Shown piece after piece: positions 3,617-47,915 of a stretch of 57,396 nucleotides of DNA; the stretch's first letter is position 1, and every line of letters begins with the position of its first letter. The stretch comes from Spirillospora sp. (GTDB lineage: Bacteria > Actinomycetota > Actinomycetes > Streptosporangiales > Streptosporangiaceae). The translations under genes were made by a program, and so were the position numbers. The stretch spans positions 1 through 57,396 of the forward strand of contig DATCLF010000105.1 of NCBI GenBank assembly GCA_036564055.1, written 5' to 3'. Below the pieces are notes generated by a model that did not search any database, was not told where the DNA came from, and saw only the letters and a list, made by a program, of their open reading frames with translations.

Positions 3617-4690
3617 TTACGGGCGGAGAGACTGGGTGGTCTCCACCCAGTGGGTGAGGAGGTTCGCCGCGGCCCCGGAGTCGACGGCCGTTGCGGCGCG
3701 TTCGTAGGCGCTGCGCAGGGCCGTCGTCAGGCCTTCCGGGGGCGGGGTTCCCTCGTAGGCGGTGATGAGGGCGGCGGCGTTCAGCAGAACCATGTCCCGG
3801 ACGGGGCCCTGCTTGCCCGCGAACGTGTCGCGGGCCACCTGGGCGTTGAACGTCGCGTCCGCGCCGCGGAGGTCCTCCGGCTTGGCCCGGGGAATGCCGA
3901 GGTCGGACGGGTCGAACGTCGTCTCCGTCGCCTGACCGTCGCGGACCACCCACACCGTCGAGGTCCCGGTGGTCGTCAGCTCGTCGAGACCGTCGTCGCC
4001 GCGGAACACCAGGGACGAGCAGCCCCGGGCGGCGAACACGCCGGCGACGACGCCCGCCATCCGCGGGTGGAACACGCCGACGGCCTGCGACGTGGGCCGC
4101 GCCGGGTTCGTCAGCGGGCCGAGGAAGTTGAACACCGTCGGCGTGCCGAGCTCGCTGCGCGTCCGCGCCGCGTGCTTGAGCGCCGGGTGGTACAGCGGCG
4201 CGAAACAGAAGGTGATGCCGACCTCCTCGGCGACCCGCGCGGTCGCGGCGGGAGGCAGGTCGATGACGACGCCGAGCTCCTCCAGCAGGTCGGCGGCCCC
4301 GCACGACGACGACGCCGCCCGGTTGCCGTGCTTGACGACCCGGACGCCCGACGCCGCCGCCACCACCGCGGCCATCGTGGAGACGTTGACCGTGTGCGCC
4401 CGGTCGCCGCCCGTCCCGACGAGGTCGGCGATCGGCCCCGGCACCTCCAGGGGAGTCGCGTTGTCCATCATGCCCTCGGCGAGGCCGGTCACCTCCTCGA
4501 CCGTCTCGCCCTTGGCGCGCAGCGCGACGGCGAAGCCCGCGATCTGCACGTCGGTGGCCTCGCCGGCCATGATGCTGTTCATGGCCCAGGAGGTCTCCTC
4601 GCTGGACAGCGAGTCCCCCGAGAGCAGGGCGTTGAGGATCGCGGGCCAGGTGGTGCGCGGGTCCCGGTGCGTGGCAGGCATGTTCCCCAC
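3617..4690 (-). CDS. trpD: anthranilate phosphoribosyltransferase
   Basis: GTGGD, NVST, KHGNR, DGLDE motifs. Start could be ATG 4681. Confidence 0.95.
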
Positions 4691-37832: not shown

Positions 37833-39254
37833 ATGGTTCTACCGTCCGTCGCGGACATGGTGGTCCTCGCGGCGTGCGTCGTCGCCACCGGTGCCGCCGC
37901 CGGGGACCGGACGCTGCACGCCGGGCTCTCCCTCCCGGGCCGCGCGTCCGCCGACGCCGCCGAGAAGACGGCGTTCGCGACACTGCACGCGGCCGCGCGC
38001 GCGGCCTCCCCGCTGCGCGCCGGCCTGACCGAGGAGACCGCGCGCAAGGTCGCCCGGCGGCTCAGGCCGCTGCTGGGAGCCGAGGCCGTCGCGCTCGTCG
38101 GCGTCCTTCCGCCGGACGGCGGCGACACCGAAGGAGCCGGCCCCGGCGAAGACGGCCGCCCGGCCGACGGCGAGGCGGCCAACGCCGATCAGGACGGTCA
38201 GGGCGGTGACGGCCCCGGCGGCGCCCGCGACGATGACGCCGCGGGATCGGTCCGGGAGGTGCCGCGGCTGCTGGCCTGGGACGGCGCCGGACACGCCTCC
38301 CACGCCGCCCACGCCGTCGCCCATGCCGCGCCGGTGCTCACGTCCGGGCGCCCCACGGTCGTCGCGCCCGACGCCGTCGGCTGCGACGACCCGCGCTGCC
38401 GCGTCGGCGCGGCCACGGTCGCCCCGCTCACCGTCGAAAGACACGTCGTCGGGGCGCTGGCCGCGTACTGGCGGCTCCCGTCCGCGGCCCGCGTCCGGGC
38501 GGTCGGGGACGCCGCCCGGCTCCTCACCGGCCAGCTCGAGCTGGCCGGGCTCGACACCCTGCGGCTGCGGCTCGCGGAGGCCGAGCTGAAGGCATTGCGC
38601 GCCCAGATATCCCCCCACTTCGTCTACAACTCGCTGACCACGATCGCCTCCTTCGTGCGGACCGACCCCGAACGCGCCCGCGAGCTCCTGCTGGACTTCG
38701 CCGACTTCGCCCGCTACTCCTTCCGCAACCCACGCGACTTCACCACCCTCGCCGACGAGCTGCGCTCCGTCGACCGGTACCTGGGCCTGGAGCGGGCGCG
38801 GTTCGGGGACCGGCTGCAGTGCCGGGTCGAGGTCGCACCCGAGGTGCTGCCGGTCGCGCTGCCGTTCCTCGCGCTGCAGCCCCTCGTCGAGAACGCCGTC
38901 CGCCACGGGATGGCCGGCACGGACCGCGCCTGCCACATCTCGATCACGGCGCGCGACTCGGGGGCCGAAGCGGCCATCAGCATCGAGGACGACGGCGTCG
39001 GCATGGACCCCGAGCGACTCCAGGAGATCCTGTCCGCGCCGGTCGGCAGGCCGGGCCCGACCGGCTGGGGCAGCGTCCCGCCCCGCGCGTGCCACGACGG
39101 CGCCGGCCCCGGCATCGGCCTGGCGAACGTCGACGAACGGATGCGCCAGTTCTACGGAGACGAGTACGGCCTGACCGTGGAGACCGCCCTGGGAGCGGGG
39201 ACGAAGGTCAACCTCCGCGTACCGAAATTCCGTCCGGGGGTGTTTTCGGACTGA
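37833..39254 (+). CDS. LytS/YehU-type histidine kinase
   Basis: LRAQISPHFVYNSL H-box, LQPLVENAVRHG, DDGVG, GIGLANV. Start uncertain (37833 or 37857). Confidence 0.88.
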   Translation: MVLPSVADMVVLAACVVATGAAAGDRTLHAGLSLPGRASADAAEKTAFATLHAAARAASPLRAGLTEETARKVARRLRPLLGAEAVALVGVLPPDGGDTEGAGPGEDGRPADGEAANADQDGQGGDGPGGARDDDAAGSVREVPRLLAWDGAGHASHAAHAVAHAAPVLTSGRPTVVAPDAVGCDDPRCRVGAATVAPLTVERHVVGALAAYWRLPSAARVRAVGDAARLLTGQLELAGLDTLRLRLAEAELKALRAQISPHFVYNSLTTIASFVRTDPERARELLLDFADFARYSFRNPRDFTTLADELRSVDRYLGLERARFGDRLQCRVEVAPEVLPVALPFLALQPLVENAVRHGMAGTDRACHISITARDSGAEAAISIEDDGVGMDPERLQEILSAPVGRPGPTGWGSVPPRACHDGAGPGIGLANVDERMRQFYGDEYGLTVETALGAGTKVNLRVPKFRPGVFSD

Positions 39255-39330: not shown

Positions 39331-40122
39331 ATGTTGCACGTCCTGGCCGTCGACGATGAACGCCCCGCCCTGGAGGAGCTGACCCACCTGCTCCGCAGGG
39401 ACTCGCGGATCGGCCGGGTCAGCCGCGCGTCCGACGCCTCGTCCGCGCTGCGCGACCTGAGCCGGATGCTCGTCAAGGGGGAACGCCTCGACGCCGTCTT
39501 CCTGGACATCCGGATGCCGGGCCTCGACGGGCTCGACTTCACCCGCCTGCTGACCGGCTTCGCCGCGCCCCCGCCCGTCGTCTTCGTGACCGCCCACGAC
39601 GACTGCGCCGTCACCGCCTACGAACTCGGCGCCCTCGACTACCTGCTCAAACCCGTCCGCCCCGAACGCCTCGCCGAATCGGTCCGCCGGATCGCGGCCG
39701 CCGCCGAACGAGCCGCCCCGCCCGCCGACGACACCCCCGACGCCGACGACGAGATGATCCCCGTCGAACTCGGCGGCCGCACCCGCCTCGTGTCCCGCAA
39801 CTCCGTCACCCACGTCGAAGCGCAGGGCGACTACGTGCGGCTGCACACCGCCGACGGCGGCTACCTCGTCCGCATGCCGCTGTCGGCGCTGACCAAACGC
39901 TGGGAGGCCGCCGGATTCATCCGCATCCACCGCAGCACGCTCGTCGCATCCGCGCACGTCACCGAACTGCGCTTCGACGGCGGCCGCGTCGCCGTCCAGA
40001 TCGGCGACGAACTGCTGCAGGTCAGCCGCCGCCACGCCCGGGAAGTGCGAGACCGGCTCGTCCGCAAGTTCCACCGGCCCGACAGAGACGTCGCCACCGG
40101 CAACGGCCCCGGCCACCGATGA
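39331..40122 (+). CDS. LytTR family response regulator
   Basis: VDDE, FLDIRMP, DYLLKP receiver; EAQGDYVRLH, FIRIHRS, VSRRH LytTR domain. Confidence 0.92.
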   Translation: MLHVLAVDDERPALEELTHLLRRDSRIGRVSRASDASSALRDLSRMLVKGERLDAVFLDIRMPGLDGLDFTRLLTGFAAPPPVVFVTAHDDCAVTAYELGALDYLLKPVRPERLAESVRRIAAAAERAAPPADDTPDADDEMIPVELGGRTRLVSRNSVTHVEAQGDYVRLHTADGGYLVRMPLSALTKRWEAAGFIRIHRSTLVASAHVTELRFDGGRVAVQIGDELLQVSRRHAREVRDRLVRKFHRPDRDVATGNGPGHR

Positions 40123-40150: not shown

Positions 40151-40240
40151 GACCGTTCCCGCCCACCGCTCGTCCCACGCCACCGACCACTCGCCCCACG
40201 ACCACGCAACGTATGACTCTGATTACTGACCGCTTAACGA
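40151..40240 (+). promoter_or_regulatory. putative LytTR direct-repeat binding sites
   Basis: ACCGCTCGTCCC (40165) and ACCACTCGCCCC (40186) are 21 bp apart; related ACCGTTCCCGCC (40152) and ACCGCTTAAC (40229). Confidence 0.45.
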
Positions 40241-40292
40241 AAGCTGGGTTTCCCAGGGGTCCCAACGCGGCATCAGACCCCTAGTGTTCTCA

Positions 40293-40520
40293 GTGGCACC
40301 ACACGCCACACCGCCACGGAGGGCGGAGCGGCCCGCACGGCACACCCCGGACGCGGCCGCGAACCTCCCACAAGAGCAAACCAGGAGATCCGGCACACGC
40401 CAGTCGACATGCCGGATCAGCGCCGCCGGATCCCGTACCGGGGGGGTGGGATCCCGCGGCCCGCGCTCGGGCGTCGCTGAACAGTCGGGGGGTTGTTCAG
40501 CGACGCCCGAGACTCTTTTT
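40293..40520 (+). ncRNA. candidate small RNA with six hairpins, two G-run loops and terminal U-tract
   Basis: -10 TAGTGT at 40282-40287; back-to-back stems; perfect 18-bp stem 40466-40511 followed by ACTCTTTTT. No convincing CDS. Confidence 0.6.
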
Positions 40521-40574
40521 GATTGCATTGCCCTTGGCGGTCGGGCCTTGACGGCCCTCCCTTCGGCGGGCAAT

Positions 40575-40785
40575 GCGCGCGATCGCTGCATCGCTGCGGC
40601 TCGCCTTGACGGGTCACTCCGCGATCAGGTTCTCGCTTCGCTCGAACCTGCCTTCGGACGCGATCGCAGGCGTTGGGGTCGGTGCGGGGCTGGTGTGGTG
40701 GCCGGTGTGGGTGCGCCGGGTGCGATCGCTTGCTCGCCTGCGGCTCGCCTTGCGATCGGTTCTCGCTCCGCTCGAACCCGGTTTC
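40575..40785. repeat. duplicated REP-like palindromic unit
   Basis: GCGATCGCT...TGCGGCTCGCCTTG...GCGATC(A)GGTTCTCGCT(T/C)CGCTCGAACC occurs twice (about 40578-40650 and 40722-40779). Confidence 0.6.
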
Positions 40786-40796
40786 CGTGGAGTCTT

Positions 40797-41265
40797 GAGT
40801 GAGGTCTTTCACCGGCTGGGTGGACGTCGATCACAGCATGATCGCCTTGGGGACGTTCAACGGGCACACGAAGGAACCCCTGGTAGGAGGGTTGATCACC
40901 ACAACCAGTGCGTCCGAACCAGGGGTTTCGCTTGCTGTTGAGCCGCGCCGTCGATTTGTCGCGTGCAACGCTGCCTGGCCGGAGTGATTCGGCGGCACCG
41001 CACGGCGATCAGGCCGGCCTGCCGGGTGCTCAACCCCGGAAGCAGGCCCTGCCGGTGCCGGACGGAACGCAGATCGTCTGCGACCGGGCACGGGCCGGCC
41101 GTACTACTCGACCAGGTCGACCGCTCCCTTGCCGGGGCCTGGCGAGCACGCGAATGCCCGGCTGAAGTCATGGAACCCACCGCGCAGGCTCCGCTGCGGC
41201 CCCAGCAAGGCCGGCCATCTCGTGAAGGCCATCGCCGCCCCGCGAAACTACCAGGTCACGGGTCG
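40797..41265 (+). pseudogene. internally deleted, frameshifted IS5-family (DDE_Tnp_4-like) transposase relic
   Basis: Fragments in different frames: LLLSRAVDLSRATL, VIRRHRTAIRPACRVLNPG, QALPV, DGTQI..DR, and C-terminal GPGEHANARLKSW...LRCGPSKAGHLVKAIA. Lower GC than flanks. Confidence 0.7.
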
Positions 41266-46574: not shown

Positions 46575-47701
46575 CGGAAGTGCACCTCGGCGGAGAAACG
46601 GTCGGGGGTGAAAGGTCCGGCGATGTCGGGCACCGGACCGTCCAGCAGCATCGCGGACAGGATGTCTGCGCTGATCGGGGCGAGCAGGATGCCGTTGCGG
46701 AAGTGCCCCGTGCCGATGACGAGGCCGGGAAGCGCCGACGGGCCCATCACCGGGGCGTTGTCGGGGGAACCCGGACGCAGGCCGGCCGAGACCTCGGCGA
46801 ACTCCAGCTCGGTGACGCCGGGCAGCAGCTCGCGGGCGTCCCGCAGCAGCTCCCACAGCCCGCCCGCGGTGACGCGGGTGTCGAAACCGAGCTCCTCCTG
46901 GGTCGCGCCGAGGACGACCTCGCCGTCCTCGCGCGGCACCAGGTAGACCTGCGACCCCTTCACCAGGCCGCGCGTCGCCCGCGTCAGGAACGGCACGCGG
47001 GTGCGGAGCCGGATCACCTGGCCCTTCACCGGGCGGACGGGCGGGACCGTCCCCGGCGGCAGCCCCTCCAGATCGCCCGACCACGAGCCCGCCGCGAGCA
47101 GCACCCGGTCGGCGCGGACCACGGTCCCGTCGTCGAGCCGCGCGCCCACCGCCGCGTCGTTCTCGACGGCGACGCCCGCGGCCCGGCGGCGCACGAGCCG
47201 CGCCCCCGCCTTCTCGGCCGCGACCTGCAGCGCCGCGGTCAGGCGCCGCGGGTCGATCGAGCCGTCCTCGGGGGCCAGCAGCCCGCCGCGGACGCCCGGC
47301 GCGAGCATCGGCTCCAGCCTGCGGCACTCCCGCCCGCTCAGCGTCTCCGGGGCGAGGCCGAGGCTCTCCTGGAAGCGGCGCAGGTCGTCGAGGTACTTCA
47401 GGTCGTCGGAGTCGAAGGCCACCTGGAGCAGGCCGTCGGTGCGGTAGCCGGTGGAAAGGCCGGTCTGCTCCTCCAGCTCCGCGGCGAACTCCCGGTAACG
47501 GTCCCGGGAGGCGAGGCCGAGCCGCAGCAGCGGCTCCTCGCCGTAGGTCACCTCGCTGACCGGGGTGAGCATGCCCGCCGCCACCGACGACGCGCCGCCG
47601 CCCGGGTCGGGGTCCACCAGGGTGACGGCCGCGCCGGCCGCCGTGGCCCGCCACGCGGTGGCGAGGCCGACGACCCCGGCCCCGATGATCACGATCTCCA
47701 C
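46571..47701 (-). CDS. thiO: glycine oxidase ThiO
   Basis: IIGAGVVG FAD motif, AAGML, PVKGQ, GLRP, GHFRNGILLAP. Confidence 0.93.
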   Translation of the reverse strand: MEIVIIGAGVVGLATAWRATAAGAAVTLVDPDPGGGASSVAAGMLTPVSEVTYGEEPLLRLGLASRDRYREFAAELEEQTGLSTGYRTDGLLQVAFDSDDLKYLDDLRRFQESLGLAPETLSGRECRRLEPMLAPGVRGGLLAPEDGSIDPRRLTAALQVAAEKAGARLVRRRAAGVAVENDAAVGARLDDGTVVRADRVLLAAGSWSGDLEGLPPGTVPPVRPVKGQVIRLRTRVPFLTRATRGLVKGSQVYLVPREDGEVVLGATQEELGFDTRVTAGGLWELLRDARELLPGVTELEFAEVSAGLRPGSPDNAPVMGPSALPGLVIGTGHFRNGILLAPISADILSAMLLDGPVPDIAGPFTPDRFSAEVHFR

Positions 47702-47704
47702 TGG

Positions 47705-47797
47705 ACGCTCCCTTCGCCGGCATGATCCGGATCAGGTTCTGGCGGTCGGCGGCCCGTTCAGCCGCCCTCTCAGCCCGGTCGTACCGGACTCCCGCGC
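47705..47797 (-). promoter_or_regulatory. TPP riboswitch
   Basis: Minus strand GCGCGGGAG...GCTGAGAGG...GAACCTGATCCGGATCATGCCGGCGAAGGGAGCG, directly upstream of thiO. Confidence 0.95.
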
Positions 47798-47915
47798 TCT
47801 TTGCCGTTTTTACCCGCCTTTCCCACTCTACGACCCCGGCAAAGTGCGCAGATGTTCGGACACGGGTCCCCCGTCGGCGCCCTGCCGGCGCGCGGTGCTT
47901 GGCTAGGGTGACCGC

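What the first reader, a model, noticed from the sequence alone, without database searches (positions are those of the whole stretch)
40282..40520. Candidate G-loop small RNA, the mirror image of 6C RNA, directly downstream of a LytS/LytTR pair
Seen: -10 TAGTGT (40282-40287), then from about 40293 six consecutive hairpins: GTGGC/GCCAC; CCGCC/GGCGG with loop ACGGAG; GCGGCC/GGCCGC; GATCCGGCA/TGCCGGATC; GGATCCC/GGGATCC with a G7 loop; and a perfect 18-bp stem with a G6 loop followed by ACTCTTTTT. No credible CDS. Known: actinobacterial 6C RNA has two hairpins with C-run loops that pair with G-rich targets, and LytS/LytTR pairs in actinomycetes usually precede a carboxylate transporter gene, which is absent here. 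Inference: a ~225-nt sRNA is the output of this two-component system and may act as a 6C sponge or bind C-rich targets. Alternatively, the minus strand is a 6C-like RNA.
Basis: partly seen in the sequence, partly recalled or inferred. Interest (0 to 1): 0.85.

Follow-up and report, generated by a model that had tools for sequence, protein, structure and literature searches.

The report
G-loop small RNA mirroring 6C RNA
A conserved non-coding element of Actinomadura and related soil bacteria, likely a small RNA switched on by the neighbouring two-component system, carries hairpins with runs of G that are predicted to bind and neutralise 6C RNA, a widespread actinobacterial regulator for which our searches found no reported off-switch.

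Summary
The element is real. It is single-copy, non-coding and conserved in 36 of 36 same-genus genomes. Its three 3' stems covary, and 62 G·U against 2 A·C cells place the RNA on the + strand. Similar boxes precede the monocarboxylate transporter operon of a paralogous LytS/LytTR pair elsewhere in the genome. Across the family, 40 of 48 box-bearing loci behind this LytTR have a G6+ loop hairpin, against 31 of 1,500 random windows. It is not 6C, Ms1, a CsrB-type RNA, a REP element or a peptide gene. Best reading: a LytTR-induced decoy of 6C RNA, working like RosA of Bacillus (about 45%). Its loops fit the genome's own 6C loops over 9 bp, but co-evolution was not detected (p = 0.37), and direct pairing with C-rich leaders of mRNAs stays open. 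Expression is not shown.

The parts
37833..39254 (+). LytS-type histidine kinase (His_kinase, GAF, HATPase_c)
39334..40122 (+). LytTR response regulator; best NCBIfam match BtsR, below its cut-off; belongs to a clade found at this locus across the family
40165..40174 (+). LytTR-type box 1 (ACCGCTCGTC)
   Evidence: AlgR core CCGTTCGTC in PMC4064291; binding inferred
40186..40195 (+). LytTR-type box 2 (+21)
40208..40217 (+). degenerate box 3 (+43)
   Evidence: read from the aligned promoters
40229..40238 (+). LytTR-type box 4 (+64)
40282..40287 (+). conserved -10-like hexamer TAGTGT; start predicted near 40292-40293
40293..40520 (+). predicted small RNA, about 228 nt
40318..40368 (+). 5' domain: GGAGG (40318-40322) pairs with CCUCC (40364-40368) around a length-variable hairpin (40328-40360)
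40387..40418 (+). stem with nearly invariant arms and variable loop
40422..40460 (+). G-loop hairpin A (G7 at 40440-40446; G7 in 29 of 30 homologues)
40466..40511 (+). G-loop hairpin B (G6, invariant in 30 of 30), also the terminator-like stem
40512..40520 (+). T-rich tail

Best explanation
The element is a conserved, single-copy, non-coding stretch with covarying G-loop hairpins on the + strand, likely transcribed as a small RNA of about 228 nt when the adjacent LytTR regulator is activated, and predicted to work as a decoy that pairs with the C-rich loops of 6C RNA. Steps: (1) shown: conservation, structure, strand, lack of a reading frame, box array and -10 at fixed spacing. (2) Inferred, about 85%: the LytS/LytTR pair binds the four boxes and activates the promoter. 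(3) Inferred, weaker: the signal is a monocarboxylate or a related carbon cue, because the paralogous pair and similar boxes sit with mctC. (4) Predicted: loop A (CC-G7) and loop B (UC-G6-U) pair with 6C loop 2 and loop 1 in antiparallel order, which would free G-rich ribosome-binding sites from 6C repression.
For: 36 of 36 same-genus genomes hold it, with one main match each; a covariance model gives one strong hit per genome. 12 of 36 pairs change on both sides, 99.4% of cells pair, 0 of 500 shuffles reach that, slid controls give 24-47%; G·U 62 versus A·C 2 cells. Loops stay fixed while stems vary. Of 58 family loci downstream of the best LytTR match, 48 have a box pair; of these 47 have a TANNNT 104-124 nt on and 40 have a G6+ loop hairpin; random windows 31 of 1,500; box loci outside the family 0 of 10. 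Box pairs precede DUF485-mctC in this genome and a second mctC-like gene. The 35 LytTR proteins from this locus form one side of a branch (SH-aLRT 98, quick tree), apart from the mctC-linked paralogues. 6C is present here (58.2 bits) and in 106 of 120 family genomes. Loop duplexes: A with loop 2, 9 contiguous pairs, -24.1 kcal/mol; B with loop 1, 9 pairs, -18.8. G7 runs are rare (54 of 1,572 G6+ runs). In 40 genomes the best loop ranks at a median of the top 10% of same-length G runs for pairing with the cognate 6C. 6C acts through either C loop on G-rich leaders (PMC6486639, PMC10470900, passages). A precedent exists: RosA (PMC8216469, passages).
Against: No transcript was shown: the only RNA-labelled runs are compost contigs that run through both ends and may be DNA. 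Cognate RNA-6C pairs score no better than swapped ones (p = 0.37, 40 genomes; one 6C, G426, was mis-parsed), though 6C barely varies. The exact 7:7 and 6:6 run fit is peculiar to this genome: 6C loop 1 has seven C in most relatives. Loop B pairs with 6C no better than an average G6 run (rank 579 of 1,515). The bases flanking the G runs can also be explained as a weak stem tip within the RNA. Nested co-folding gains only 3.2 kcal/mol (it cannot model loop-loop pairing). A strict box pair was found in only 5 of 19 mctC-linked paralogue loci and in 0 of 8 Streptomyces loci, so the box-regulator link is not universal. 10 of 58 family loci showed no box pair.
Confidence: 0.45

Rival explanations
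1. The same LytTR-induced small RNA pairs directly with C-rich stretches just upstream of, and overlapping, the Shine-Dalgarno sequence of mRNAs (for example a sugar ABC binding protein), and so represses sugar uptake or other genes when carboxylates are present. It may do this besides binding 6C.
For: 19 crudely called genes have a C6+ run shortly before the start, several directly against GAGG. The sugar-binding protein gene keeps a C5+ run in 15 of 18 homologues; a DivIVA-domain gene keeps C6 in 4 of 5.
Against: C6+ is kept in only 3 of 18, 2 of 25, 0 of 5, 3 of 5 and 4 of 5 homologues of the five genes tested (5 of the 19), while the G loops are nearly invariant. Only one perfect 12-nt complement per loop exists elsewhere in the assembly. 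Several copies of one motif suit titration better than targeting (inference).
Confidence: 0.25
2. The RNA is a protein decoy: repeated G-loop hairpins bind an unknown RNA-binding protein, as CsrB or CrcZ do downstream of their two-component systems (recalled analogy).
For: Two to four similar hairpin loops per RNA, in variable number and spacing; other strong G-loop hairpins occur in the genome; two-component control.
Against: No CsrA in 5 of 5 genomes searched, control positive; the one GGA loop is not free; no candidate protein identified; the loops match a co-occurring C-loop RNA.
Confidence: 0.15
3. The hairpins act on the minus strand, as a 6C-like RNA or as C-loop terminator or stabiliser stems of the convergent nfo transcript.
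For: The minus strand also folds (z = -4.45) and weakly resembles 6C; nfo is convergent and adjacent in many relatives.
Against: 62 G·U versus 2 A·C cells favour +; conserved boxes, -10 and T tail are all on +; here about 950 bases of repeat and other DNA separate nfo from the stems; true 6C lies elsewhere.
Confidence: 0.06
4. A leaderless small protein starting at the GTG at 40293, a repeat element, or a left-over leader of a lost transporter operon.
For: GTG (ATG in one relative) sits at the predicted start; the promoter layout resembles that of DUF485-mctC.
Against: Indels in all three phases; single copy; ends in a terminator-like stem facing a convergent gene; mctC leaders examined have no such hairpins (0 of 10 outside the family).
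Confidence: 0.04

Closest known systems
RosA sponge RNA of Bacillus subtilis (PMC8216469; passages read); RsaI of Staphylococcus aureus as described there
   Same: Stand-alone RNA of about 229 nt with several G-rich regions complementary to the C-rich regions of a conserved regulatory RNA; carbon-linked transcriptional control.
   Different: Other phylum; RosA is repressed by CcpA and its G regions are single-stranded, whereas this RNA is likely activated by a dedicated LytS/LytTR pair and shows its G runs in hairpin tips. RosA pairing was shown by experiment; here it is predicted. No sequence comparison with RosA was run.
6C RNA / B11 (Rfam RF01066; PMC6486639, PMC10470900, passages)
   Same: Two adjacent hairpins with a homopolymer run in the loop, last stem followed by a U tail, same bacteria.
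   Different: G instead of C in the loops; no Rfam match above cut-off; the genome's own 6C is on another contig.
LytTR systems with a transporter output (BtsS/BtsR; function recalled) and the paralogous LytS/LytTR-DUF485-mctC locus of this genome
   Same: Same regulator family, similar boxes and box-to--10 spacing.
   Different: The output behind this paralogue is a non-coding RNA, not a transporter.
CbrA/CbrB-CrcZ and GacS/GacA-RsmZ (recalled, not read)
   Same: A two-component system whose output is a decoy RNA.
   Different: Those RNAs bind proteins (Hfq/Crc, CsrA); no CsrA was found here.

Membership tests
6C RNA (RF01066) | Score above the gathering cut-off (47 bits) | tested here: not met
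   22.4 bits on the minus strand, E 3.5; none in 8 family loci
6C RNA (RF01066) | C-run loops on the transcribed strand | tested here: not met
   G·U 62 versus A·C 2 places the RNA on +, where the loops are G runs
Ms1 RNA (RF02566) | Rfam match or location | tested here: not met
   No hit at the element even at E 10; a weak Ms1-like hit lies beside 6C on C413
RosA/RsaI-type G-rich sponge | Stand-alone gene with own promoter and terminator | tested here: met
   By sequence only
RosA/RsaI-type G-rich sponge | G-rich regions complementary to C-rich regions of a co-occurring small RNA | tested here: met
   9-bp loop duplexes with the genome's 6C; 6C in 106 of 120 family genomes
RosA/RsaI-type G-rich sponge | Pairing specific to that partner | tested here: inconclusive
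   Cognate versus swapped p = 0.37; median top 10% of same-length runs
RosA/RsaI-type G-rich sponge | Pairing in the cell that lowers the partner's activity | not testable with these tools
   Needs experiments
RosA/RsaI-type G-rich sponge | Carbon-source control | tested here: inconclusive
   Only by association with mctC
CsrB/RsmZ-type protein sponge | Several free GGA loops and a CsrA gene | tested here: not met
   GGAGG is paired; CsrA in 0 of 5 genomes
REP-like repeat | Many copies per genome | tested here: not met
   One copy in G000; one strong model hit per genome; the repeat starts only after about 40518
Leaderless small protein gene | Conserved reading frame | tested here: not met
   Phases 12/13/4 of 29
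LytTR-activated promoter | Phased direct repeats resembling a known LytTR site upstream of a -10 | tested here: met
   Boxes at 0, +21, +43, +64; AlgR core CCGTTCGTC; binding itself not testable

The most novel reading that the evidence does not exclude
A duplicated LytS/LytTR sensor has, across a whole actinomycete family, been dedicated to making a mirror-image RNA that captures both loops of 6C RNA at once. It would be the first known antagonist of the most widespread actinobacterial small RNA and would tie 6C to carboxylate sensing, as an RNA-level form of catabolite control.
Probability: 0.35. Interest if true: 0.85.

Novelty: new variant of a known kind. Interest (0 to 1): 0.68.

Why it matters
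6C RNA is conserved across high-GC Gram-positive bacteria and represses many mRNAs without a chaperone; one paper calls its physiological role unclear (PMC6486639, passage). A natural, inducible antagonist would show when cells want 6C off and give a tool to list its targets. Even if the partner is not 6C, this is an undescribed structured RNA family with a dedicated two-component system in genera that make antibiotics (Actinomadura, Nonomuraea and relatives), and the strains to test it are culturable.

Tried and rejected
Rfam on the window: only a TPP riboswitch; nothing above cut-off at the element or in 8 family loci. Exact loop-A pattern in 301 class genomes: 3 hits besides G000, none with the element's anatomy on reading. 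Promoter pattern in genome contigs: too loose, stopped at 120 rows, mostly chance; used only for names. Covariance model R1 (Actinomadura type): outside the family 3 weak hits (E 0.0005-0.001, not inspected) in 143 genomes; in the family 15 strong hits and 1 weak hit in 145 genomes, so it misses the diverged Nonomuraea-type form found by synteny. Streptomyces: no box pair within 5 kb of LytTR in 8 loci, and box-pair counts at control level in 5 genomes. Viral contigs: no loop-A hairpin. Expression: two compost runs held as contigs, uninformative. G-rich ribosome-binding sites of mctC operons as 6C targets: G-rich in some, no G5 run in most read, so not claimed. List of 307 candidate 6C targets: no theme drawn from it. 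Literature: 9 searches found no description of this RNA or of a 6C sponge; one search was swamped by marine sponges; the word 'sponge' is absent from both 6C papers read; subscription journals and supplements of motif-discovery papers were not seen and could list it. Earlier notes of this scan: three unrelated RNAs, none on look-alike DNA.

Full report
Observation. The stretch folds far better than shuffles on both strands (z -6.03 and -4.45), and the last stem with its T tail is called a terminator on +. Rfam finds nothing at cut-off; the best resemblance is 6C on the minus strand at 22.4 bits against 47.

Conservation and strand. A DNA search finds it in 36 of 36 same-genus genomes and only weakly in 2 of 24 others; the many short extra matches belong to a separate repeat that starts after about 40518. 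In 30 aligned homologues the two G-loop tips are fixed (G6 in 30, G7 in 29) while the stems vary. For the three 3' helices, 12 of 36 pairs change on both sides and 99.4% of cells pair; no shuffle of 500 reaches this and slid controls give 24-47% (the sequences are related, so this is not a probability). One-sided changes are G·U in 62 cells and A·C in 2, which picks the + strand. Indels fall in all three phases, which excludes a leaderless peptide.

Promoter. Upstream lie four phased boxes at 0, +21, +43 (degenerate) and +64, then the -10 about 117 nt after box 1. The boxes resemble the core site of the LytTR regulator AlgR, CCGTTCGTC (PMC4064291, passages). In this assembly a strict three-box pattern occurs twice: here and before a gene whose start reads like MctC (by eye). 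A box pair also precedes DUF485-mctC on contig C124, behind a paralogous LytS/LytTR pair. Outside the family, 10 of 40 loci behind LytTR had a box pair; by eye 8 lead into DUF485-like genes and 2 into an acetate-uptake-like gene (label recalled), and none into G-loop hairpins. Against this, only 5 of 19 paralogue loci in the family and 0 of 8 Streptomyces loci showed a strict pair.

Range. I examined 58 family loci downstream of the best LytTR match (one further genome was left out because its contig ends). 48 have a box pair; of these 47 have a -10-like hexamer at the expected distance, 40 have at least one G6+ loop hairpin and 41 have two or more G5+ loops, against 31 and 25 of 1,500 random windows. 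Named carriers are Actinomadura, Spirillospora, Actinocorallia, Actinoallomurus and Nonomuraea; the window's version is of the Actinomadura/Spirillospora type. The Nonomuraea type has different stems and two to four G loops. The 35 LytTR proteins taken from this locus lie on one side of a branch with support 98, apart from the mctC-linked paralogues (quick tree, midpoint root; the label was given by locus and includes four genomes where I did not find the RNA). Several relatives keep a small membrane gene and a diverged symporter-like gene between LytTR and the boxes, the same order as at the mctC locus. I infer that a sensor module was duplicated and that the RNA stands where the transporter operon stands in the other copy. 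It was not found outside the family in the samples searched.

Partner. The genome has a true 6C on C413, as do 106 of 120 family genomes. 6C represses mRNAs by pairing either C loop with G-rich leaders (PMC6486639 and PMC10470900, passages). Loop A pairs with 6C loop 2 and loop B with loop 1 over 9 bp each, in antiparallel order. Across 40 genomes the best loop ranks at a median of the top 10% of same-length G runs, and G7 runs are rare. But cognate pairs do no better than swapped ones (p 0.37), loop B alone is unremarkable, and the exact run-length fit is not conserved. The test has little power because 6C hardly varies. RosA of Bacillus, a 229-nt RNA with G-rich regions that sponges C-rich RoxS and FsrA under carbon control, is the closest working model (PMC8216469, passages).

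Rivals. C-rich stretches just before ribosome-binding sites exist (19 crudely called genes) and are partly conserved in the five tested, so direct repression of mRNAs remains possible and could coexist with sponging. A protein decoy has no candidate; CsrA was not found in 5 genomes. A minus-strand role is unlikely.

Limits. Nothing here shows expression, regulator binding, the signal, or RNA-RNA contact. Nine literature searches, Rfam and this scan's earlier notes gave no description; PMC3765725 and PMC13501541 were read as passages only and did not mention such an RNA in them.

Verdict. A real, apparently undescribed RNA gene (about 90%), likely driven by the adjacent LytTR regulator (about 85%), most likely a decoy of 6C (45% for the whole chain). 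Interest 0.68.

Noticed in passing
window 47692-47805 (-): TPP riboswitch (61.6 bits) ahead of the thiamine genes.
   Followed up: no
window 40520-40790: Repeat of short palindromes with 4 further matches in this assembly and many in relatives; inserted right after the RNA in part of the genus.
   Followed up: partly
window about 41050-41260 (+): Short stretch whose translation recalls the C-terminus of an IS5-type transposase (recalled); Pfam found nothing.
   Followed up: partly
L384 (G000:C273, near 380-500, -): Array of four or five boxes ahead of a lone mctC-like gene cut by the contig end; its ribosome-binding region holds a G6 run and could be a 6C target.
   Followed up: partly
L383 about 4250-4290; also L369, L371, L381, L469, L471: GTGA-N6-TCAC palindrome just after the -10 of DUF485-mctC promoters, like a Crp/GlxR site (consensus recalled).
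   Followed up: no
L502 (G000:C413:12262-12459, -): Weak Ms1-like match about 500 bases from 6C, on the opposite strand.
   Followed up: no
L130-L133 (G374, G299, G404, G435): More diverged version behind a box pair: GAGGGGGAG and GGAGGGGAG motifs in place of pure G loops; in G374 GGGGGAGAG matches the CUCUCCCCC of its 6C.
   Followed up: no
L097 1557-3263 (-) and similar loci: The symporter-like gene between LytTR and the RNA is strongly diverged or decayed in relatives and absent from the window; it may be a sensing partner being lost.
   Followed up: partly
L159 (G433 6C): 6C loop 2 with a run of 13 C; may be an assembly error.
   Followed up: no
G000 contigs C144, C32, C191, C64, C449, C430: Other strong single hairpins with a G6-7 loop on one strand and a C loop on the other; strand and role not examined.
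   Followed up: no
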